Shown here one piece after another: positions 24,363-62,035 of a DNA stretch of 64,000 nt; the first letter of the stretch is position 1, and each line of letters opens with the position of its first letter. This DNA comes from Malacoraja senta. Lineage: Eukaryota. The notes under the pieces are model-generated. The model searched no databases, was not told where the DNA came from, and worked only from the letters and a program-made list of their open reading frames with translations. The position numbers were made by a program, and so were the translations under genes. The stretch is taken from contig CM075993.1 in the NCBI GenBank assembly GCA_038087875.1, positions 4,528,001-4,592,000 of the forward strand, written 5' to 3'.

Positions 24363-27106
24363 GCTAGCTGAGTTCTGCCAGCCTTCTATTTTCTATTCTA
24401 CAAAGCATGGGGTTTTATGATCTGAGCCGACACGTTGGTAAGTATGCGGTGGAGAATCTCTGGCCAGAGATTTTCTGGTGAACCTGAAGCGTGTGAGTGA
24501 GTGAGCGCCGGGGCAGCTGAACACAAACATTTCACCTTAACGTCTCAAGACGGGTCTCAACCCGAAACGTCACCTATTCATTTTTTCCAGAGATGCTGCC
24601 TGACCCGCTGAGTTACTCCAGCATTTTGTGTCTATCTTCACTTTAATTTCACTTTGCCAACATTTTAACTTAAGGTCATAAGTGATAGGAGAAGAATTAG
24701 GCCAATCGGCCCATCGTCTACACCGCCATTCAATCATGGCTGATCTATCTCTCCCTCCCAACCCCATTCTCCTGCCTTCTCCCCATAACCCCTGACACCC
24801 GTACTAATCAAGAATCTATCTATCTCTGCCTTAAATATATCCACTGACTTGGCCTCCACAGCCTTCTGTGGCAATTCTACCAGATTCACCACCCTCACTT
24901 TCCACCAACATCAAGAGTCAAGAGTCGTGTACAGTCAATGAAATTCCTACCTGCTGCAGCTTATCAGACCCATCAACACACAGACAATATGTAATAATCA
25001 ATATCACAATAAATTAACAATCAGTAATACTAGGTAACCTTCACACTGAAGTGCGAGCAAAATCACAGTTCACGGAAGACCGTGACGTGCCATCCCACCC
25101 TGACCCTAATAGGAAATATTCGCTTCCATTGCTCGGGTATTTACATTAAATCTTCTCCCTTGTTCACACAACAGTTACACCCGAAATAAACGGAGCAACG
25201 AAACTTGCAGGAAGGAACTGCAGATGCTGGTTTACACCGAAGATAGACACAACATGCCGGAGTAACTCAGCGGGACAGGCAGCATCTCTGGGTGGAAGGA
25301 ATGGGTCATGTTTCAGGTCGAGACCCTTCTTCAGACTGAGAGTCAGGGGAGAGGGAGACACGGAGATATGGAAGGGTAAGGTGTGAAAACGAGTGATCAA
25401 ATGGGACGAAGTTCAAGGACAATGTAGAGGAGGAATCACAGAGCGAGAGAGGGTGTTGCAGCACTCACGACGGAGGAAGAACTTGACACACCTTGAGGAG
25501 ATTTCGCAGTGGAGCAGATGAAATGTATAGGAAGGAACTTAACTTGTGTAACTCGCCCCATTATTAATTTAACGCATAGATTCCGTTGGTGAATGCAAAT
25601 TGCTTCACTCTTATAGTCATTACATCCTGTAATGCCGGGCAATGGCGTTCAAATATGTCAAAGAGTCGACACCACGTTCAGAGTAAAGCATCAATAGGCC
25701 GATATTGATGCACCATTTGGCATTGATATTGGTTTAGGTGTATTATTCTAACCTGTACCGTGATACAATGAGTTTTCCACGCACAAGTACAACAGGTAGT
25801 GCAAACGAGCAAAGAAACAGCACACAGAATATAGTTACTGCTACAGAGAAAGTGCAGAGAAAAAAAGTGCAAGGGTGCAAAGAGGTAGACTGGGGGATCT
25901 GTAATCTATCTTTAGCTTATGTGACTGAAGAAGGGTTCCAATTTGAAAAGTCACCCATCCATGTACTCCAGGGATGCAATCTGACCCGCTAAGTTACTCC
26001 AGCATTCTGTGTTTTTCCTTATGAGAGGTCTGTTCAATAGTCTGATATCAGCGGGGAAGCAGCTATTACTGAATCTGGCAGTATGGGTTTTCAAGCTTTT
26101 CCTATCATCTGCACCGCGGGAGATGGGAGAAAAGGGAATGACCAGATGTGAGTGATCGTGCATTCTGAGGCAGCGAAACTGGAGTTGATGTTGGGGAATC
26201 TGATCTGTGTGATGGACTGGGCTACATCCACAACTCTCTGCAATTTCTGTATAGAAAAGAACTGCAGATGCTGGTTTAAACCGAAAATAGACACAAAAAG
26301 TTGGAGTAACTCGGCAGGTCAGGCAGTATCTCTGGAGAAAAGCAATAGGTGATGTTTTGGGTCCAGACCCTTCTTCAGACTTGTGGTCTTGGGCAGAGCT
26401 GTTGTCAAATCCAATTGTGATGCATTCCAATGGGATGCTTTCAGTGGTGTAACTGTTAGTAAGAGGCACCAAAATGCTGGAGTAACTCAACAAGACAGGC
26501 AGCATCTCTGGAGGGAAGGAATGGGTGATGTTTCGGGTCAAGGTCCTTCTTCAGACTGAGAGTCAGGGGAGAGGGAGACTAGAAATATGGAAGGGAGACA
26601 AAAATGCTGGAGAAACTCAGCGGTTGAGGCAGCATCTATGGAGCGAAGGAAATAGGCAACGTTTCGGGCCGAAAGCCTTCAAGGAAATAGGACAGCATCT
26701 GCAGTTCCTTCTTGAACACTAGAGATATGGAAGGGTAAGATCTATCTTTCTCTCTCAACCCCATCCTCCTGCCTTCTTCCCATAACCGCTGGCACTCGCA
26801 CTAATGAAGAATATATCTATCTCTGTTTTTATAATATCAATTGACATCCTCAACAGCCTCATGTTGCAATGATTGCAATGAACTGTCTCTTGATCTCACA
26901 CCCTTCAGTCTCCCTTTCACTTACTCCATCCTCCCCTCCTCACCTGTATCCACCTACCAATTTTACTCAAGAGTTCAGCATCTGCATCTCCTTGTGTCTC
27001 CATGTCTCTCCAGGAGGTTATTTTTAACTTTGCACGGTCAGAGTTGAAAGGGACACAAAGGGGTATCCGATAAGGGGAGAAGAGGGGGATGAAATGTAAA
27101 GCTGGA

Positions 27107-27623
27107 AGCCTAAAACTTACAACAAGCCAAAATAAATTTCCTTGATTGTAGTATAATAATTGGGGAAAAAGTAATATTCAAATTTTGGAAAAACCCAACA
27201 ACCCCCACAATTAAAATGTGGATTATGGAGATGTCTGAGACCTTACACTTGGAAAAAATTAGACTTGTCTTAATTGACAAACCATTTATTGATTTTCTGA
27301 AAGGGTAAATTGGTCCAGCACGGAAACTTGACTGAAACTTGAATCCAGGATTGGATGAATAATTATACTTTATAATCTACGGACCTATCTCCAAAATTGT
27401 ATTATTGGTAATTTATCCTATTTTTTCTTCGCTTTCTCCCCCCCTTCTTTCTATAAAAAAAAATAAACAAATCGAAGCTGTGTTAATATGTAATTGATAA
27501 ACGAGAACCCCAGCTATTTTGATAGCTGGGATCCCAGCTGTTAACAATATGTAATTGATAAACAAATTGTGTTTTGATTACGATATGTATATGCTTCTAA
27601 TAAAAATATTAAAAAGAAAAAAA
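27107..27623 (+). mobile_element. 5'-truncated L1 of a related subfamily (ORF2 C-terminal remnant, 3'UTR, A-rich tail)
   Basis: TSD GAAATGTAAAGCTGGA at 27091-27106 and 27624-27639. Encodes KFWKNPTTPTIKMWIMEMSETLHLEKIRL, versus KFWKGPTTPTIKMWIIEMTETLNVERIRL in the ORF2 at 55 kb. Confidence 0.9.
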
Positions 27624-28182
27624 GAAATGTAAAGCTGGAGGGCGGGATATGGGAGGGAGGTTAAATGGGGTGTATAAGGAGAGGCAGGTTGGGGTACGCG
27701 TTGCATCAAAGGGGGTACAAAGGGGGTGATCTCCCCCCCCACCTTCACTTTACACAAACTAGTTTTTTCAGCTATTCATTTAAACCGCTGCAGCTCACAT
27801 GTATTAAGCCTCTGTAAATCGCCCCTAGTGTGTAGGGAGTGGACCACACAAAGTGGGCTAACTCACGTTGAACTAGTGTGAATGGGCGATTGATGGCTGT
27901 GTGATCTGTCGTTTTCACACCTTACCCTTCCATATCTCTCGACTCCCTGACTCTCAGCCTGAAGAAGTGTCCCGACCCGAAACGTCACCCATTCCGTCTC
28001 TCCAGAGATGCTGCCTGTCCCGCTGAGAGTTACTCCAACTTTTTGTGTCAGTCTTCGGTTGGGCAGAAGGGGCCTGTTTCCACTCAGCGTCGAATTGCAA
28101 AGTTGCCTTGATGCTGTGTTATGTTTTTGACGAGTTACTGAGGTTTGAAAGCTGAAGCCGATTCGCAGGTTATTCCGTTTTA

Positions 28183-36777: not shown

Positions 36778-36884
36778 TTAGCAAATTGCCTCTTTCTGCA
36801 GGAAGAATTTCCGGGCGTCTTCCCACATCTCACGGGGAAACCGGTTGGAGAATTCAAGGTAGTCTTGACCTCCAGGAGCTCCGA
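36778..36884 (-). CDS. SCAPER: SCAPER terminal coding exon ((V)GAPGGQDYLEFSNRFPREMWEDARKFFLQKEAIC*)
   Basis: On -: acceptor ctctcatttcag|TC, phase 1, TAA stop at 36780-36778. Matches the SCAPER end motif QDYLELANRFP..AWEEARQFFL.KE. Confidence 0.92.
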
Positions 36885-37143
36885 CTGAAATGAGAGGACC
36901 ACATTGAATTGTTAAAGCCAACATTGTTGTACCTTGGGGCTTGTGACATCACCTCAGTCAGGACTGAGAGTGGAGAGGGTAGGTGGCGAGAGGGCGAGTG
37001 GCGATTCGGAGCCAGTAGGTGATCGATGGACCAAAGGGCTGAAGGATGATGGAGCCAGGTTGGGGAGGTGGGGTTGTGGGTGGCGTGGAGTTGGGAGACA
37101 GAAGCGGGAGGCGAACTGCAGAGAATAAATCTGAGATACACAC

Positions 37144-37195
37144 CTGTCTGGTGAGAAGTCTTATTGTCCGTCTGACTTGAACTCTGCGAAAAATC
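37144..37195 (-). CDS. SCAPER: SCAPER penultimate coding exon (52 nt; DFSQSSSQTDNKTSHQT + 1 nt)
   Basis: On -: acceptor gttttcttag|GAT, donor G|gtgtgt. Phase 0/1 fits both neighbouring exons. Corresponds to the short linker DLAQTPGQAENQPYQPK in human. Confidence 0.85.
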
Positions 37196-37653
37196 CTAAG
37201 AAAACACAATATTGTCATTATATTCTTTATGCATTTTTATTTAATCTTTTACTCGTTTCTTTCTACTTTTTCCATTCTGCCCATTTTTGATATCCTAGAC
37301 TACATACTTGTAGAAGTATTGCAATTAATACAATAATTGCATTTGGCATGACACTGTGTAGAAGCAAAATAGCATAGTATAAAGCAGAATGCAGAAACAA
37401 GGAACTGCAGATGCTGGTTTACCCAAAAGGACACAAAGTGCTGGAGAAACTCAGCGGGTCAAGTAGTATCTCTGGAGAACATGAATTGGTTTAAGCCAGC
37501 TCCTGCAGTTCCTTCCTGCACATAAATGACTGAGATGGTGTGAGGAGAGGATAAGCTATCTGTGTGAGATAATGCTTTACAGAGAATTCAGTAAAACCCT
37601 GAACATAATTACATTGTGGTGAACACGAAAGAGCGGCAGACATGCACGTTTAC

Positions 37654-37845
37654 CTGGATAAAGGTGGCCAGCAGAATGCAGCTCATCTCCTGCTCCAGGA
37701 TGATCTTGTTCTGCCGGTTGTTGTAACAAGCCGTGATCAGTGTTGGGAACAGGACTTTGATCAGACGCTGGTCACTGAAGTATTGGAAAGGCAGCTGGCA
37801 AAGCTTCTGCAGCACCGTGGGATGTCGGCCTGACTGAACTGTCAC
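37654..37845 (-). CDS. SCAPER: SCAPER third-to-last coding exon (64 codons)
   Basis: On -: acceptor ctttctttcag|GTG, donor CAG|gtaaac. Translates VTVQSGRHPTVLQKLCQLPFQYFSDQRLIKVLFPTLITACYNNRQNKIILEQEMSCILLATFIQ, near-identical to the recalled vertebrate SCAPER C-terminal region. Confidence 0.95.
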
Positions 37846-53942: not shown

Positions 53943-55333
53943 CTGAAGTTTACACAGGGCGTCAGTGTACTGCTGAAGCATGGATTCGAATGCTCCTTCT
54001 CTCTTTTGAGTAGTCAGACCACAGATACTCAGAGTCAGAGCTGCAATTGTTCAAGAATGCGTTGATCTTTTTCCTTTACCAGCCTGGTAATTTTTTCTCA
54101 TTACACAGGTTGGAAGAGTCTTAGTTTTGAGAGTCTTGTGTTAGGCTTGTAAATTACATGACCTGCCATGAAGACTGAAGAAGGGTCCCGACCTGAATCG
54201 TCACCTATCCTTTATCTCCAGAGATGCTGCCTGACCCGCTGAGTCACTCCAGCACTTTGTGTCTATTTTTTTTGTAAACCAGTATTCCATTACTCATCAG
54301 TTTGAAAAAAATCCAAGAGCCACGCTAACAACTACACATAATAAATGGTCAATGCAGAAATAGAAATCATGAGACAATATATAAATATATTAAAATACCA
54401 ATTTCATATTAGGCTGTAAACAGTAAGTAATAATTGTATGACTCCCCACATAATGATGGCAAATTATATGGATATGGGGATCTTTCTGACTGGGATGATA
54501 AAAGTGGATGGAATAACCACTCTTTGGATAAGACCGTTTGAAACAAAATACTAATAACAGAATCGGAAATGAAAGTGGGCAATGGTTGAAAGACAATATG
54601 AAAATATTTGGTTAGAAAATGAAAAAAGTACTTGCTGTGCTTTCTTACACCCTAATTTTGTCTGAAGTGGTTGGAAAGTCTGGTCCCATATGCATCAAAT
54701 GGCTTTAAAGCCATTTCACCCACAGCTAACCCACACTTCCACCGGTTTCTTTAATAACATATTGGCCTTAACCCAGCAGCTCGGGTCATAATGCCACGAT
54801 AGTTGTCGTGAGCATTCTGATGGCCTGTAGATTATTAATTGTACTTGAGTTTGCCACTCAATCACATAACAATAATGTTATGAGCTCTTTTTATGTTGTT
54901 AAATGTTTCTTGGCTGATGCACCTTTAAATGTTCGAAACTAGAGGAAGTATCTCATTAAACAGCTTTTTTTTTTTTTTTAATTAATATTTTTTTATTGGA
55001 GATGCGTACACAACCTAGTTACATCATTACAGTCTTACAGTCTTACATTTTTAAATTGATAATATTGTTAAATATTATTACAATGTCTCCAATACTTTTT
55101 GCTTTTTTTTTTTTTAAACTAAATAGAACTAAAGAGAAAGATGAAGTAAAGAAAGAAAAGAAAGAGAAGAGAAACAAATAATAATAATAAAACAAAAAAA
55201 AACCAAAAAAACAAAAAAATTGAGAAAAGATAGTTAAAGGAGAATGGAAAAATTTATTAAAATAGAAAACTTCATTCGAGATATATTCGTACATTTCTAG
55301 ATATAGCATTTCATCCATTCTTTAGCCCGGGTG

Positions 55334-58300
55334 TTAGTCAGGTTCCTGTGCTGAACTGTTCTGACCCTTTAGGTAATCAATAAAAGGAGACCATGTTCCA
55401 ATGAATAATTCCTGTTTGTCCAACAGGGAGAGTCTGATTCTTTCCACGTTTAAGGTCTCCGTCATTTCTATAATCCACATTTTGATTGTGGGGGTCGTAG
55501 GGCCTTTCCAAAATTTTAGAATTAATTTTTTTCCTGTTATTAAACTATAATCAATAAAGTTTCTTTGTGTTGTTCTAAATGTTTGATTTAATTCTAATAT
55601 TCCAAGTATTATTAATTTTGGGTCTGGGTCCAATTGTGTGCTGGTTACTTTAGATATTAAACTGAAAATATTTACCCAGAATTGTTTAATTTTTATACAG
55701 TTTGCAAACATATGAGATAAGGTAGCTTCTAAATGTTGACATTTATCACATATAGGTGAGATATGTTGAAAAATTTTATGTAGTTTTGTTTTAGAATAAT
55801 GTAACCTATGTATTACTTTAAATTGTATTAGAGAATGTCTGGCGTTTAATGAACATTGATGTATGTGTTGCAAACTTTCTTCCCAAGTATCTTTCGTTAT
55901 TATTTGATTTAATTCTTTTTCCCATGTTTGTCTGTGTAAGTCCGTCGATGGAATGTCACTGTCTAATAAGATATTATATATATATGATATTAATTTTTCT
56001 GTATTAGGATGTTTGTTCCAACATTCATCAAGAATTTCTGAATTTCTAATTCTAAAATTTTGAGTATTTGATTTTACGTAATCTCTAAGTTGAAGATATC
56101 TGAAGTAATCATTTCCTCGAAGTCCGTAAGTCTGTTGCAACTCCTGAAATGTCAGAAAAGTGCCTTCGTTGTAAAGTTGTCCCATATTTTTAATTCCATA
56201 ATTCTTCCATTGTGTAAAACCCCCGTCCAACCATGAAGGCTTAAACAAAGGGTTATTCACAATTGGAAGAAAAAGTGATAAATTATCTAATTTTAATGTC
56301 TTTTTTAATTGTTTCCAAATTCGTATAGCACTAAATATTATAGGGTTTTCCCTATAAATTTTTTTGTTTAATTTAGACGTAGCAAATAAAATCGAACCGA
56401 TATCAAAAGGTAAACAATCTTCCTTTTCCATTTTTAACCAGTCTGGTTGATGATCTATTTCTTCCAACCAGAAATTCATATTTTTAATATTAACTGCCCA
56501 GAAATAAAACAAAAAGTTGGGTAAAACCAAGCCTCCATTTATTTTTGATTTACACAAATGTCTTTTGTTTATCCTATGATTCTTATAATCCCAGATAAAA
56601 TCATTAACAATAGAGTCCAGTTTTTTAAAAAAGGTTTTTGCCAGATATATCGGTAATGTCTGAAACAGGTATAATATTTGCGGTAAAAAAATCATTTTTA
56701 TGGCATTAATTTTGCCTACCATTGAGATAGGAAGTGTTTTCCAGTATTGAATATTCTTATGTAGTTTATTTAGTAATGGTGGAAAATTTGCTTTAAATAA
56801 TGATGTATATTTCTTAGTTATATAAATACCTAGATATTTAAATTTTTCCTTTACTATTTTAAATGGATATTGTTGTATTATCTGTTTGTTATGTTCCCTT
56901 ATTGGCATAATTTCACTTTTATTCCAATTTATTCTGTATCCTGAAAGTGAACCAAATTGGGTTATTAGCTTTAATAAGTTTGGAATACTAATTTCTGGTT
57001 TTGTAATATAAATTAATACATCATCTGCATATAGAGAAATCTTATTCACTGTGTCCTTTGTGTTATATCCGTGTATTTCCGGATGCCCCCTGACTCTTTC
57101 TGCAAGTGGCTCAATAGCGAGCGCAAATAATAATGGAGATAACGGGCATCCTTGTCTACAACCTCTAGATAGACTAAATTTAGATGACAACCTTTGGTTT
57201 GTAAATATTCTAGCCGTGGGATTTGTATATAACAGTTTTATCCATGTACAGAATTTCTCCCCTAACTGCATATTTTCCATCACCGAAAATAAATAAGACC
57301 ATTCGACCTGATCAAATGCTTTTTCAGCGTCAAGTGAGATTATTGCTAGATCTTCATTAATATTTCTCTTGGAATATATAATATTAAATAATCTTCTTAG
57401 GTTATAATATGAGTACCGTTTCTGAATAAAGCCTGTTTGATCAGGGTGTATTAATTTATTCATCATTGTACTTAATCTATTCGCTAGTATTTTAGTTAAT
57501 ATTTTCTGATCTGTATTTAAAAGTGCGATTGCTCTATATGATCCCGGGTCTTCCAGATCTTTATCAGCTTTAGGAATAAGTGTTATTATAGATTCATTTA
57601 AGGTGTCTGGAAGTTTCTGTTGAGTATAGATATACTCGTACAACCTTTGTAAACGTGGACAAAGCAAGTCATGAAATTTTTTATAAAATTCGGAGCCTAA
57701 ACCATCTGGTCCTACTGCTTTCCCATTTTTTAAAGAGCCGATTGACTCCTCAATATCTTTTATGGTAATCTCCCTTTCTAATAATTCTCTATCGTTTGAA
57801 TCTAAACCTTTTAAATTACATTTTAGTAAAAAATCTGCTATTCCTTCTGATTGTCCTACGGTTTTAGTTGAATAAAGGTTATGATAGTATTGGAGAAATC
57901 TATCATTTATGTCCTTGGGCATTTTTAATAATTCTCCTGTCTCTGTTCTAATTTTATGAATTATTTTTTCCCCTTCCATTTTTCGTAACTGACGTGCTAA
58001 TAGTTTTTGTGGTTTGTCTCCAAATTCAAAATGTAATTGTTTGGTTTTTTGATAAAGTTTTATTACTTGTTCTGAATACATTTTATTTAATTTATATTTC
58101 AATACAGCAATTTTATTATGTTTTAAAATAGATGGCGTTCTCGCATTTTCTATATCTAGTTGCTTGATTTCCCTTTCCAATGTTTGTTGTTTAATCCTGT
58201 TCTCTTTATTATAAAATGCTTGAGCGGAAATCAATGTACCACGAACAAACGCTTTAAACGTTTCCCACATAAGAGAAGTAGGTGTGTCAGGGTTGTCATT

Positions 58301-59149
58301 TACCTCAAAAAATATTTGAATCTGTTTAATAATATATTCCTGGCATGATCTTTCGTTCAAAATTTGTGGGTTAAATCTCCAATATGTTTGTTTCTCGGAC
58401 ATTCCATTTAATTTAATCATGAATGTTACAGGTGCGTGATCTGAGATTATAATGTTATGGTATTTTGAATTATAAATAAATGGGATAAACCTAGAGTCAA
58501 CCAAAAAATAATCTATTCTTGAGTATGTTTTATGTACTGGTGAGTAAAATGAGTATTCCCGTCCAGTTGGGTTTTCTATTCTCCAGACATCTTTAATATT
58601 AGTGGTATTAATAAATGAATTTAAAAATACACTTGATTGAGATTTTACTTTTTTTTGCCTTGAAGATCTATCTAAGTATGAATCTAATGTACAGTTAAAG
58701 TCTCCTCCAATTATTAATTTATATTGTGTAAATTCAGGAATTTTGTTAAATGTTTTATTAAAAAACATGGGGTTATCAAAGTTAGGCCCATATACATTAA
58801 GAAGAATCACTTTTTCTCCATTTAACTCTCCTACTAATATAATATATCTACCATCTATATCCACTATTGTTGAAGAGTTCGTAAAATGTATTCCTTTACG
58901 AATTAGTATTGCAACTCCTCTGGATTTATGGGAAAAAGAGGAATGATATGATTCAGCGATCCACTTTGCTTTAAGTCTATGTTGGGATTCCTTTTTAAGG
59001 TGCGTTTCTTGGAGGAATATTATATCTGTTTTGATTAGGTTTAGATGTGCCAAAACTTTACCTCTCTTAATTGGTTCATTGATTCCCTTGACATTCCAGC
59101 TACAAAATGTTATTCCCTGGCCCCCTCTTGTCATATTAACATCTTGCAT
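55334..59149 (-). CDS. L1 ORF2p: APE endonuclease + reverse transcriptase + C-terminal CCHC, 1271 aa, uninterrupted
   Basis: APE motifs SWNVKG, LQETH, GGDFN, SRIDY, SDH. RT motifs GPDG, DAEKAFD, RQGCPLSPLLF, YADD, YLG. Zinc knuckle CDKCQHLEATLSHMFANC. Confidence 0.97.
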   Translation of the reverse strand: MQDVNMTRGGQGITFCSWNVKGINEPIKRGKVLAHLNLIKTDIIFLQETHLKKESQHRLKAKWIAESYHSSFSHKSRGVAILIRKGIHFTNSSTIVDIDGRYIILVGELNGEKVILLNVYGPNFDNPMFFNKTFNKIPEFTQYKLIIGGDFNCTLDSYLDRSSRQKKVKSQSSVFLNSFINTTNIKDVWRIENPTGREYSFYSPVHKTYSRIDYFLVDSRFIPFIYNSKYHNIIISDHAPVTFMIKLNGMSEKQTYWRFNPQILNERSCQEYIIKQIQIFFEVNDNPDTPTSLMWETFKAFVRGTLISAQAFYNKENRIKQQTLEREIKQLDIENARTPSILKHNKIAVLKYKLNKMYSEQVIKLYQKTKQLHFEFGDKPQKLLARQLRKMEGEKIIHKIRTETGELLKMPKDINDRFLQYYHNLYSTKTVGQSEGIADFLLKCNLKGLDSNDRELLEREITIKDIEESIGSLKNGKAVGPDGLGSEFYKKFHDLLCPRLQRLYEYIYTQQKLPDTLNESIITLIPKADKDLEDPGSYRAIALLNTDQKILTKILANRLSTMMNKLIHPDQTGFIQKRYSYYNLRRLFNIIYSKRNINEDLAIISLDAEKAFDQVEWSYLFSVMENMQLGEKFCTWIKLLYTNPTARIFTNQRLSSKFSLSRGCRQGCPLSPLLFALAIEPLAERVRGHPEIHGYNTKDTVNKISLYADDVLIYITKPEISIPNLLKLITQFGSLSGYRINWNKSEIMPIREHNKQIIQQYPFKIVKEKFKYLGIYITKKYTSLFKANFPPLLNKLHKNIQYWKTLPISMVGKINAIKMIFLPQILYLFQTLPIYLAKTFFKKLDSIVNDFIWDYKNHRINKRHLCKSKINGGLVLPNFLFYFWAVNIKNMNFWLEEIDHQPDWLKMEKEDCLPFDIGSILFATSKLNKKIYRENPIIFSAIRIWKQLKKTLKLDNLSLFLPIVNNPLFKPSWLDGGFTQWKNYGIKNMGQLYNEGTFLTFQELQQTYGLRGNDYFRYLQLRDYVKSNTQNFRIRNSEILDECWNKHPNTEKLISYIYNILLDSDIPSTDLHRQTWEKELNQIITKDTWEESLQHIHQCSLNARHSLIQFKVIHRLHYSKTKLHKIFQHISPICDKCQHLEATLSHMFANCIKIKQFWVNIFSLISKVTSTQLDPDPKLIILGILELNQTFRTTQRNFIDYSLITGKKLILKFWKGPTTPTIKMWIIEMTETLNVERIRLSLLDKQELFIGTWSPFIDYLKGQNSSAQEPD

Positions 59150-60244
59150 ATTGTTTCTAAGGTGGTCTATAGCCGAGCAGAGAGTACAACACGTAGAACC
59201 TGATCCTGCTACCGAGCTTCAGACAGATGAATATAAAATCATATACATCGCTCTTCCGAACACATCTCCTTGTATTAGACTTGTTTTTCCATTCAAACGT
59301 TGAGTTATAAAAATATTTAAAGTGAAAGAAGTGATAGAGTTGATTAGTAAAGGGTGAAAGAAAAATAACTACATCTACAATTAGTGTAGTTAGTGATAGC
59401 CACACTAACGTGGCTAGAATTCTAAAGACTTCCGTAGCCTTTGTAAAAAAAAAAATTCCCAGCTCCGTGCCCGAAGAAAAAAAAAAAAGATTATTTCTAA
59501 CATTCAAATAACTTCTTTGGGAGTAACAAACTTATATACATACCCATACCTACACACACACACCATACATACATATAAATATGTATATATACCCATGTGC
59601 GTACATTTACAAGCACGTATCCCTGCAGACAAACTCAAGAACAGCAAAAATTCACAACGTTATTGTTCTCTACATGTTATATTATTTTCTTCGCTAAATC
59701 TATAAATTTAATTTTGATTTGAAAATCAAAGAGGAAAACCGTCAAGTTTTATTATGACCTAGGCAAATTTACCTCTTGCATATCCTCTTATATAATCTAA
59801 GTATGTAATTCATCTCTACCTTAATCAAAGACTATTAATTATTAATCATTGTTATCCATCAATACAGTATTAAATTTTTATGAGAGAAGTTAATGTTAAT
59901 AATTTTAGTAGTAATGTGGATATTAAATAAGTATTAGTTGTAGTTAGGTGTGAGTATACAGATTATAACAATGACTAGTAAAATTAATAAAATAAAAAAA
60001 TAAACAATACAAAGATCCCGATTTTCTCCAATGTTCTCCGTCCATTTCGGTTTTCGAATGGCCTTAAAGCTCTTAAAAGAACTTTAAAGGTCTTCCGGTG
60101 GCGCTATGGAGGCTTGAGTCCAGCGCCAACTAGCTCCGTGCCGAAGAAAACTGAAACGGGAGAAAAATCGGGTCTTACCTGCAGCGATCGCGATCTGAAA
60201 GGCTGCCTGCCGCGTGACGTTATCAGGAGTGCGACTTGGACGGT

Positions 60245-61282
60245 ATGTCGACACAACGTTCTCCCCCTCCCCGTGGGATACAAAAAAAAACCGGTAAAGG
60301 GAAACCCCCTCCGATGGAAGAGGAAGGCCCAACTGAGGCCTCGGCCTCAGGTACAATGACTGCCCAGGAAGAGCCCCCGAAGAAAACAAAACAGAAAAAG
60401 ACTGAAATGGATGATCTTAAAGCTTTTCTTACTGCCGAATTGAAAACCTTTGGAGAGAATTTTAAAGAAGAGCTTTACTCTTTTAAGGTAGATTTTAAAG
60501 CAGAAATGCTTTCTACCGTTCAAGAAATACTGGAAGTCTGGAAGAGGTCAAGGGAGGAGGAGGACAAGGAACAGATGGAAGAGCTGGAAGTAAGGATCGC
60601 TTCGGTGGAAGCGAGCGTTAAAATGGAGGTGGACCCCATTCATCAAGAACTCGATCAACATAGAACAGCAATAACTGAACTTGAGAAATGGGCGGCGACA
60701 AGTGCGGAAACTGTAGGTCGACTCATTAATGAAAACCAACGCCTCTCCGAAATGGTGATCAAATTAAGTGATAAATGTACCGATTTGGAGGGACGTCAAA
60801 GACGTATGAACCTAAGAATTGTAGGGGTGAAAGAAGGAAGTGAGAAGGATATGGGCACTCGGGATTTTGTGGCAGACCTATTACAAAAAGCCTTAAAATT
60901 GGATTACAAACCTTCACTCGGTCGAGCTCATAGAGCGCAGCGACGTCGTACACAAGATGAAGCCCACCCAAGACAAATCATCGTAAAGGTACAACTGGAT
61001 CATGAATTTGACGATATAATGAGGAAAACTGTTCAAGGCGGACAGCTCCTTTTTAAAGGGGTGAGATTCAGTATTTACCGAGATTATCCGGCAGAAGTCT
61101 TCAAGAAAAGAGCGCTGTTCACTGAGACAAAAAGAATACTGAAGAATATACCGGGTTTGAGATACGGCCTGCTTTATCCCGCAAGACTAAGAGTCTCCTT
61201 CAAATCTAAGGAGCTATTTTTTACAGACCACGAAAAAGCACTGGAATACGCCAAAGAAACCGAGAACTTGACCGTAGACTGA
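60245..61282 (+). CDS. L1 ORF1p (coiled coil, RRM, CTD), 345 aa from the first ATG, inverted relative to ORF2
   Basis: Heptad-rich N-terminal half, then DLEGRQRRMNLRIVGVKEG, RAHR and YPARL, the typical L1 ORF1p signatures. Confidence 0.93.
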   Translation: MSTQRSPPPRGIQKKTGKGKPPPMEEEGPTEASASGTMTAQEEPPKKTKQKKTEMDDLKAFLTAELKTFGENFKEELYSFKVDFKAEMLSTVQEILEVWKRSREEEDKEQMEELEVRIASVEASVKMEVDPIHQELDQHRTAITELEKWAATSAETVGRLINENQRLSEMVIKLSDKCTDLEGRQRRMNLRIVGVKEGSEKDMGTRDFVADLLQKALKLDYKPSLGRAHRAQRRRTQDEAHPRQIIVKVQLDHEFDDIMRKTVQGGQLLFKGVRFSIYRDYPAEVFKKRALFTETKRILKNIPGLRYGLLYPARLRVSFKSKELFFTDHEKALEYAKETENLTVD

Positions 61283-61596
61283 AGAATTTACTTTACGTCT
61301 TAGGAGTCAAGGACTAACAGGACCTCATTAAACAGCTTAATGGTCTATTTTGATATTGGTTTGGAAAGGTCTCTAATATGCACCTGGTGCTTTGCTTTAA
61401 ACATGCTCGATGTTTCAGATGTACCTGGAACGAACAGGTGGGGGAAACAATCTCCTTGTATATCCATTTGATACAGGCTTCTTCTAATATTGTTTGAAGG
61501 CAATATCCCTCAGGGGATAAATACAGTGCCTAATGGTGTATGATTTACCTGTTCAAACCAAGAAGGTACGAGGTTTGGTCTCTGATTCGTGCTAAC

Positions 61597-62035
61597 CATA
61601 TTTGGGCACCATATCTGAGGAAAGATGTGCTGGCCCTGGAGAGGGTCCAGAGGAGGTTTACAGGAATGATTCCAGGAATGAGTCGGTTAACCTATGGTGA
61701 GCGTTTGACGACACTGGGCCTGTACTCGCTGGAGTTTGGAAGAATAAGGGGGGACCTCATTGAAATGTACCGAAAAGTGCAAGGTTTGATTAGAGTGGAT
61801 GTGGAGAGGATGTTTCCACTAGTGGGAGAGTCTAGGACTAGAGGTTATAACCTCAGAGTTAAAGGACGTTCTTTTAGGAATTTCTTTAGTCAGAGGGTGG
61901 TGAAGGCTGTGGAGGCCAAGTCAATGGATAATCTCTGCCATTAAAAATATCCACTAACTTAGCTTCCACAGCCTTCTGTGGCAAAGAATTCCACAGATTC
62001 ACCACCTTCTGACTAAAGAAATTTCTCCTCATCTC
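61597..62035 (+). mobile_element. CR1 fragment with a short inverted piece (61940-62035)
   Basis: WAPYLRKDVLALERVQRRFTGMIPGMSRLTYGERL..LGLYSLEF.RIRGDLIE. Confidence 0.82.

What the first reader, a model, noticed from the sequence alone, without database searches (positions are those of the whole stretch)
54952..61338. Complete young L1 split into divergent ORF1 and ORF2 by a gap-free twin-priming inversion
Seen: one 15-bp TSD (CTCATTAAACAGCTT) encloses an intact 1271-aa ORF2 on - and an intact ORF1 on +, head to head. The ORF1 segment ends ...CTAACAGGACCT (GACCT 61321-61325), running into the TSD. The ORF2-side segment begins GACCTTTAAAGTTC on - (AGGTC at 60088-60092). The pieces therefore rejoin without loss as ...AACAGGACCTTTAAAG... 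The RNA there (CT-TTAAA) resembles the TSD end (CTCATTAAA), and the internal junction shares a GGTC microhomology with the putative 5' end GGTCTTCCGGTGGCGC. Known: this is the twin-priming signature, described mainly for mammalian L1 and usually accompanied by 5' truncation. Inference: a near-lossless example in a cartilaginous fish would point to an old L1 mechanism. It leaves a 5'UTR-driven ORF1-only unit firing antisense into SCAPER and a promoterless ORF2 in SCAPER sense.
Basis: partly seen in the sequence, partly recalled or inferred. Interest (0 to 1): 0.85.

Follow-up and report, generated by a model that had tools for sequence, protein, structure and literature searches.

The report
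Twin-primed, 5'-complete skate L1 insertion
One L1 jumping-gene insertion, likely in a skate, has its two intact genes pointing away from each other inside a single pair of target duplications, likely because it was copied from both cut ends at once (twin priming), a known process that I found described almost only for mammalian L1.

Summary
Observation confirmed. One perfect 15-bp target-site duplication encloses an intact L1 ORF2 with 3'UTR and poly(A) on the minus strand and an intact L1 ORF1 on plus, head to head. The ORF1 piece starts with the conserved fish/lizard L1 5' terminus, so it is 5'-complete within about 3 nt. The closest named ORF1 and SCAPER relatives are from skates. The geometry fits twin priming with the break in the inter-ORF region (0.85). 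'Gap-free' is supported only by a 5-nt overlap (31 of 5051 control positions; about 0.7), and small overlaps are ordinary in human twin-priming products. No read support and no collinear sister copy were obtained. New and unexplained: the 5'UTR is 19/20 complementary to a site about 300 nt before ORF2 in the inferred native RNA (0 of 2000 shuffles), predicting a helix that loops out ORF1. Verdict: new member of a known kind, with a worthwhile side lead.

The parts
54952..54966 (.). Target-site duplication, copy at the element's 3' end (last 2 nt shared with the poly(A) tail)
54965..54979 (-). Pure 15-nt poly(A) tail; canonical poly(A) signal at 54997-54992
54980..55333 (-). 3'UTR, about 353 nt, 24% GC, U-rich
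55334..59149 (-). Intact L1 ORF2, 1271 aa (APE endonuclease, reverse transcriptase, CCHC)
59150..60092 (-). ORF2-side part of the inferred inter-ORF region, 943 nt, 31% GC, 19 ATGs
59427..59480 (+). Copy of both conserved 5'-end motifs on the strand opposite ORF2; complementary to the 5'UTR in the inferred native RNA (19/20 at about 59461-59480)
60088..60092 (.). Internal inversion junction: start of the non-inverted piece meets the element's 5' terminus
60089..60244 (+). 5'UTR, 156 nt, 58% GC, CpG o/e 1.18; conserved start CTTCCGG at 60092, AGCTCC at +44 (60132), predicted hairpin 60099-60128
60245..61282 (+). Intact L1 ORF1, 345 aa
61283..61325 (+). First 43 nt of the inferred inter-ORF region; last 2 nt shared with the TSD (inferred internal priming site)
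61324..61338 (.). Target-site duplication, copy at the element's 5' side; contains a variant poly(A) hexamer on + at 61327
36781..37845 (-). Host context: last three coding exons of SCAPER

Best explanation
This is one L1 insertion with intact ORF1 and ORF2 in opposite orientations inside a single 15-bp target duplication, likely made by twin priming of one full-length L1 RNA. Inferred steps: the endonuclease nicked at a TT/AA site; the first nick primed on the poly(A) tail and copied about 5.1 kb, through ORF2 and most of the inter-ORF region; the second nick's 3' overhang primed about 43 nt after the ORF1 stop and copied about 1.24 kb to the RNA's 5' end; the two cDNA ends were joined on 1-4 nt of homology with about 3 nt duplicated. 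The copy would be unable to retrotranspose on its own, since ORF2 is cut off from the 5' promoter, and would leave a promoter-ORF1 unit antisense to SCAPER.
For: Single perfect TSD around both pieces, unique in the window. Poly(A) tail and signal at one TSD, TT/AA nick context at the other. The inverted piece touches the TSD with its inter-ORF end and the internal junction with its 5' end, the order twin priming predicts (model as described in PMC2912911 and the 2024.08.27.596794 preprint). The start of the ORF1 piece shares 13 nt with the start of zebrafish L1-6 and has AGCTCC at the same +44 position (consensus statement). [quoted passage not shown] The 5-nt overlap at the boundaries is reached by 0 of 901 inter-ORF and 31 of 5051 element positions. 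A second L1 remnant in the window has a 16-bp TSD, the long overhang that PMC4245944 argues twin priming needs. A related fish-type L1 contig has ORF1 and ORF2 sequence on one strand (L001; two adjacent copies, so weak).
Against: No collinear sister copy was seen (no genome held; searches gave none of this family) and no reads were laid (one search gave no data). Primer pairing is weak: 2 nt exact, duplex -1.9 kcal/mol, gapped similarity matched by 17 of 1254 positions. The inferred 981-nt inter-ORF region is longer than the zebrafish range of 311-730. Two similarities sit awkwardly across the internal junction: 12 nt on its ORF2 side match the flank of the inter-ORF motif copy at 10/12 (0 of 885 inter-ORF, 15 of 4125 other positions; post hoc), and 60012-60055 (-) resembles the 5'UTR at 60146-60176 (0-10 of 1500 position-restricted shuffles, but 5-121 of 128 window tiles score as high). 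In cell culture 5' inversions arose almost only with human L1 in human cells.
Confidence: 0.85

Rival explanations
1. An ordinary full-length insertion whose first 1.24 kb was inverted later by DNA repair.
For: Both pieces are complete, which a simple inversion would also give; both junctions carry only short homologies.
Against: The outer breakpoint would have to fall within about 2 nt of the TSD boundary by chance, which twin priming gives by construction. The 5'UTR/inter-ORF repeat that could drive recombination is not at either breakpoint. Both ORFs intact implies little time: in simulation 31 of 300 copies stay intact at 0.5% decay and 0 of 300 at 1% with indels (my assumed rates).
Confidence: 0.05
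2. A natively divergent L1 family, with ORF1 and ORF2 transcribed from a central bidirectional region and the whole unit mobilised from a minus-strand RNA.
For: Similarity to the inter-ORF motif copy runs across the junction (10/12) and weak inverted arms flank the junction almost symmetrically, as if the junction were old. Both ORFs are intact.
Against: The minus-strand RNA would have to start at 61323, which has none of the conserved 5' motifs, while a normal L1 5' terminus sits at the junction. The only nearby poly(A) hexamer for ORF1 is in the host-derived TSD. The 5-nt overlap would be chance. The published vertebrate L1 families are described as dicistronic on one strand.
Confidence: 0.04
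3. Two different L1 RNA molecules served as templates at the two nicks (a dual-template variant); the product looks the same.
For: Dual priming has been proposed for other L1 structures (PMC2837659); sequence alone cannot count the RNAs.
Against: The two pieces appear to meet at the same RNA position, expected on one RNA and unlikely on two.
Confidence: 0.03
4. Assembly artefact (chimeric join of L1 repeats).
For: No reads were laid; the window is a scaffold with a 200-N gap elsewhere.
Against: Junction homologies are 5 nt or less, too short to mislead an assembler (inference), and an artefact would not be expected to produce a TSD-bounded, 5'-complete, overlap-consistent structure.
Confidence: 0.03

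Closest known systems
5'-inverted (twin-primed) human L1 insertions (Ostertag and Kazazian 2001, known here only through citing papers)
   Same: One TSD of about 15 bp, poly(A)-bearing non-inverted 3' piece, inverted 5' piece against the TSD, short homologies at both junctions, small overlap at the break. In humans 18-31% of L1 insertions are 5'-inverted; 132 of 287 have the two cDNA ends within 20 bp and 54 of those 132 overlap; 283 of 1703 tumour cases carry a junction duplication.
   Different: Human cases are typically also 5'-deleted and short (median 5' break at 4.5 kb, junction at 5.15 kb; germline median total 1363 bp). Here both cDNAs are long, the 5' terminus is kept, the break is in a long inter-ORF region so both ORFs survive, and the host is likely a skate.
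Non-mammalian vertebrate L1 with short 5'UTR and long inter-ORF region (zebrafish L1-6, L1-16B; lizard L1_AC15; Boissinot and Sookdeo 2016, PMC5381506)
   Same: 5' terminus motif and AGCTCC at about +44, 5'UTR about 160 nt, long T-rich inter-ORF region, GC-richer ORF1, T-rich 3'UTR.
   Different: This copy is split and inverted. That paper found no shared RNA structure among inter-ORF regions and the passages I read do not mention 5'UTR/inter-ORF complementarity.
ORF1-only genes derived from L1 (L1TD1 in mammals; recalled, not tested)
   Same: An intact ORF1 under its own promoter, separated from ORF2.
   Different: No evidence here of expression, fixation or selection; this copy looks recent. 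The L1TD1-like name on the skate hit P0001 is a source annotation, not evidence of domestication.

Membership tests
L1 clade non-LTR retrotransposon | ORF2 with APE endonuclease, reverse transcriptase and C-terminal CCHC | tested here: met
L1 clade non-LTR retrotransposon | ORF1 homologous to L1 ORF1p | tested here: met
   human ORF1p 2ykp E 1.3e-5 over residues 144-332; fish and skate relatives; Pfam gave no L1 family
L1 clade non-LTR retrotransposon | 3' poly(A) tail after a poly(A) signal; TSD of about 15 bp at a TT/AAAA-like nick | tested here: met
   (first four positions of the nick consensus match)
L1 clade non-LTR retrotransposon | Conserved vertebrate L1 5' terminus | tested here: met
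   third letter differs from the published consensus or belongs to the other piece
Retrotransposition-competent (dicistronic) L1 copy | 5'UTR, ORF1 and ORF2 collinear on one strand | tested here: not met
   ORF1 on +, ORF2 on -; not filed as an active copy
Twin-priming (5'-inverted) insertion | One TSD pair encloses an inverted 5' piece and a non-inverted poly(A)-bearing 3' piece | tested here: met
Twin-priming (5'-inverted) insertion | Microhomology between the TSD end and the start of the inverted cDNA | tested here: met
   2 nt exact; gapped similarity reached by 17 of 1254 positions; weak duplex. Human cases mostly show 2-5 nt
Twin-priming (5'-inverted) insertion | The two cDNAs start and end at neighbouring positions of the native RNA | tested here: inconclusive
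   5-nt overlap, 31 of 5051 control positions; native sequence not available
Twin-priming (5'-inverted) insertion | Microhomology at the internal inversion junction | tested here: inconclusive
   1 to 4 nt depending on the native third letter
Twin-priming (5'-inverted) insertion | Source family is collinear (sister copies) | not testable with these tools
   no genome held; collection scans gave no copy of this family
Twin-priming (5'-inverted) insertion | Junctions present in raw reads; empty site exists | not tested
   one search returned no data

The most novel reading that the evidence does not exclude
Skate (perhaps fish-wide) L1 RNA folds a long-range 5'UTR/inter-ORF three-way junction of about 20 bp plus a second short helix, which loops out ORF1, controls ORF2 translation or reverse-transcriptase passage, and favours twin priming in the inter-ORF region with capture of the true 5' end. 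Twin priming would then be an ancestral jawed-vertebrate L1 pathway that cleanly produces promoter-ORF1-only genes.
Probability: 0.2. Interest if true: 0.78.

Novelty: new member of a known kind. Interest (0 to 1): 0.48.

Why it matters
Cell-culture work tied 5' inversion to human L1 in human cells (PMC4245944), and my searches found no report of it for L1 in fish or cartilaginous fish. A clear skate case suggests the pathway is older than mammals and makes a genome-wide count in sharks and rays an easy test. Because the break falls in the long inter-ORF region, it shows a direct route from an active L1 to a promoter-ORF1-only unit. The 5'UTR/inter-ORF complementarity bears on the open question of how ORF2 is translated in L1 elements with long inter-ORF regions and is testable by covariation. 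Against this: it is a single, probably dead insertion, and the mechanism itself is textbook.

Tried and rejected
Own genome: none held. Sequencing runs: 24 listed, 2 hold half or more of the words (0.71 and 0.64, one study, possibly the source), the rest are small shares, and no RNA holder was listed; none was laid (one search gave no data), so none counts as evidence. Sister copies: metagenome scan 1 locus of 91 stretches (L001, 46%); viral scans 0 of 33 and 1 of 85 (L002, ORF2 fragment, 39%); genome scan 57 loci at 25-41% identity; only L001 of 59 loci carries ORF1-like sequence, and it lacks an inter-ORF region. Best ORF2 relative is 55% identical, so this family was not found in the protein collection. 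Earlier findings: nothing. Rfam on 59100-61400: 4 matches, all far below gathering score, rejected as low complexity or chance. Published consensus file is cut to about 400 nt per sequence, so inter-ORF regions of zebrafish and frog could not be checked for the complement; the 0 and 2 counts for reversed motifs there are no evidence. Recombination between the 5'UTR and its inter-ORF complement as the cause of the inversion: rejected, breakpoints are not in the repeat. Strong primer annealing: not supported. In-frame SCAPER-ORF2 fusion: 0 of 6 AG sites in phase 0, judged against the phase-0 acceptor at 37845 and assuming that is the next exon. Literature searches did not force the term 'twin priming' and were uninformative.
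Full report
What is there. Two identical 15-mers at 54952-54966 and 61324-61338, the only copies in the window, enclose 6357 bp. Reading the minus strand, the element's sense, the order is: TSD; the reverse complement of a piece that holds 43 nt of post-ORF1 sequence, ORF1 and the 5'UTR; a junction at 60088-60092; 943 nt of non-coding sequence; ORF2; a 353-nt 3'UTR with a canonical poly(A) signal; a 15-nt A run; TSD. ORF2 (1271 aa) has endonuclease and reverse transcriptase domains, YADD and CCHC and matches human L1 ORF2p at E 7.6e-181. ORF1 (345 aa) has no L1 Pfam hit but matches human ORF1p at E 1.3e-5, and its best named relatives are from skates at 72% and 53%. The host gene end is 94-98% identical to skate SCAPER, so the host is likely a skate. 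The last three SCAPER coding exons lie on minus at 37845-36781 and no earlier exon was found in the window, so the element is inferred to lie in the preceding intron, 17 kb from the acceptor.

Is the ORF1 piece 5'-complete? Yes, within about 3 nt. Boissinot and Sookdeo (PMC5381506; passages, section 9 and supplement parts 6-7 of 7 read) give GGACTTCCGGTT for zebrafish and GACTTCCGGTG for lizard starts, and a GAGCTCCG motif about 40 bp in for frog. The window has CTTCCGG at 60092 and AGCTCCG at 60132, that is +44 from 60089, the same position as AGCTCC in zebrafish L1-6, whose start shares 13 nt with this one (read by eye). [quoted passage not shown] The same source undercuts the GGTC microhomology: the held text has GACTTCCG 18 times and GTCTTCCG never (only about 400 nt per sequence are held). 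The T at 60091 may come from the ORF2-side cDNA, leaving 3 of 4 pairs or a single base. A TCTTCCG at 59252-59258 that pairs with the 5' end in the model fold keeps the other reading open.

Do the pieces rejoin without loss? The last 5 nt of the ORF1 piece equal the first 5 of the ORF2 piece, but 2 of the 5 are also TSD. With boundary slack allowed, an overlap of 5 or more arises at 0 of 901 inter-ORF positions and 31 of 5051 element positions. That is suggestive, not proof; I put near-losslessness at about 0.7. The second primer pairs weakly: -1.9 kcal/mol, with a gapped similarity reached by 17 of 1254 sampled positions. Human 5'-inverted L1s mostly show 2-5 nt there (PMC2912911, passages), so weak pairing is normal.

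Mechanism. Shown: geometry, TSD, tail, nick context, intact ORFs, 5' motifs. Inferred: nick at a TT/AA site; first cDNA from the tail for about 5.1 kb; second cDNA from the other overhang, primed just after ORF1, for about 1.24 kb to the 5' end; joining on 1-4 nt with about 3 nt duplicated. A second, 5'-truncated L1 remnant at about 27107-27623 (79% identical over 149 nt) has a 16-bp TSD, so this host's L1s make the long overhang that PMC4245944 (passages) proposes twin priming needs. The copy looks recent: perfect TSD, pure tail, CpG o/e 1.18, 0.86 and 0.60 in 5'UTR, ORF1 and ORF2 against 0.41 in flanking host DNA, and in a neutral-decay simulation with my own assumed rates both ORFs stayed open in 31 of 300 trials at 0.5% and 0 of 300 at 1% with indels, 39 of 300 at 1% without.

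What could not be shown. No genome is held, no reads were laid, and four collection scans gave no copy of this family. The two decisive checks, read support and a collinear sister copy, are therefore open. L001 shows ORF2 followed by a fish-type 5' end and ORF1 on one strand, two adjacent copies without an inter-ORF region.

Consequences for the host. ORF2 has lost the 5' promoter. None of the 6 AG sites in the 23 open codons before its ATG is in phase 0, the phase of the SCAPER acceptor at 37845, so an in-frame fusion there is not available. Its poly(A) signal is in SCAPER sense and could truncate transcripts (inference). The promoter-ORF1 unit points antisense to SCAPER; a variant poly(A) hexamer lies 45 nt after its stop inside the TSD, followed by U/GU-rich sequence, so a short ORF1-only mRNA is possible. 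Such hexamers are common (4 in the next 2.7 kb), and no expression was tested.

An unexpected feature. The 5'UTR at 60132-60150 matches 59461-59480 at 19 of 20; 0 of 2000 dinucleotide shuffles and 0 of 128 window tiles score as high. The first 5' motif also has a copy at 59427-59434. In the inferred native RNA these are complements of the 5' end, about 300 nt before ORF2. Co-folding gives a three-way junction in which the inter-ORF site pairs with both flanks of the 5'UTR hairpin and skips the hairpin (interaction -26.9 kcal/mol; the best of 141 tiles are the two overlapping this site, the next is -14.7). In a 2.2-kb model RNA most pairs of the long helix have probability 0.9 or more, while the first nine bases prefer 59250-59258. 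Readings: long-range RNA pairing (my preferred, about 0.45), an antisense promoter reusing the same two core motifs (about 0.3), or a relic duplication (about 0.25). One sequence gives no covariation, so this is a prediction. The inversion puts both copies on one strand and abolishes the pairing. Two weaker similarities near the junction (10/12 on its ORF2 side; 60012-60055 against 60146-60176, not significant against window tiles) remain unexplained and are the main support for the natively divergent rival.

Comparison with what is known. 5' inversion is common in human L1: 30.9% of 2068, 18-22% in PMC12016303 (passages and section 8), 1047 cases in PMC12350158 (passages). Ends within 20 bp occur in 132 of 287 and overlaps in 54 of those; duplications in 283 of 1703 (preprint 2024.08.27.596794, passages). 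So the gap-free aspect is ordinary. Less ordinary are the retained 5' terminus, the survival of both ORFs and the host. In culture, 5' inversion appeared only with human L1 in human cells, bar one zebrafish Nimb-2 insert in chicken cells. I found no report for L1 of fish or cartilaginous fish in the listings of searches, and none on 5'UTR/inter-ORF pairing in 26 and 67; the library lacks most subscription papers, Ostertag and Kazazian 2001 was not held, and two recalled surveys (Kojima and Okada 2009; Ichiyanagi and Okada 2008) were not read and may already cover this. PMC2837659 and the 2025.02.02.635956 preprint were read as passages; PMC5389967 and PMC6007223 mention twin priming only in references. 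Preprint supplements were not seen and could list 5'-complete inverted human copies.

Verdict. The value lies in the likely taxonomic extension and the 5'UTR/inter-ORF complementarity.

Noticed in passing
window 59427-59480 versus 60089-60150: Copy of both conserved 5'-end motifs in the inter-ORF region, complementary to the 5'UTR in the inferred native RNA (19/20; 0 of 2000 shuffles); predicted three-way junction.
   Followed up: partly
window 60012-60055 (-) versus 60146-60176 (+): Weak direct similarity between the start of the ORF2-side piece and the 5'UTR, giving inverted arms nearly symmetrical about the junction; not significant against window tiles.
   Followed up: partly
window 60077-60094 and 59416-59427: The internal junction lies at the edge of an imperfect 18-nt palindrome (16/18), and its 12 ORF2-side bases match the flank of the inter-ORF motif copy at 10/12.
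   Followed up: partly
window 27091-27639: Older 5'-truncated L1 3' end on + with poly(A) and a 16-bp TSD; 57% amino-acid identity to the ORF2 C-terminus.
   Followed up: partly
window 59890-59996: Long imperfect AT-rich inverted repeat in the inter-ORF region (64% over 112 columns, E 5e-4), a possible hairpin.
   Followed up: no
window 61876-62026: Nested inverted repeats (29 nt, 93% and 86%) in a decayed repeat just outside the element, a fold-back structure.
   Followed up: no
L001:2150-3013: A fish-type L1 5' end with ORF1 sits directly after the ORF2 C-terminal part of another L1 on the same strand, a likely nested or tandem insertion.
   Followed up: partly
L006-L056 (CAXXMW01 contigs): Many near-identical, regularly spaced L1/Tx1-like ORF2 copies (25% identity) on contigs filed under a bacterial MAG; likely a tandemly arrayed, site-specific element of a eukaryotic host.
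   Followed up: no
L002:5001-6164: An isolated L1 reverse-transcriptase fragment (39%) in a 211-kb contig of the viral collection.
   Followed up: no
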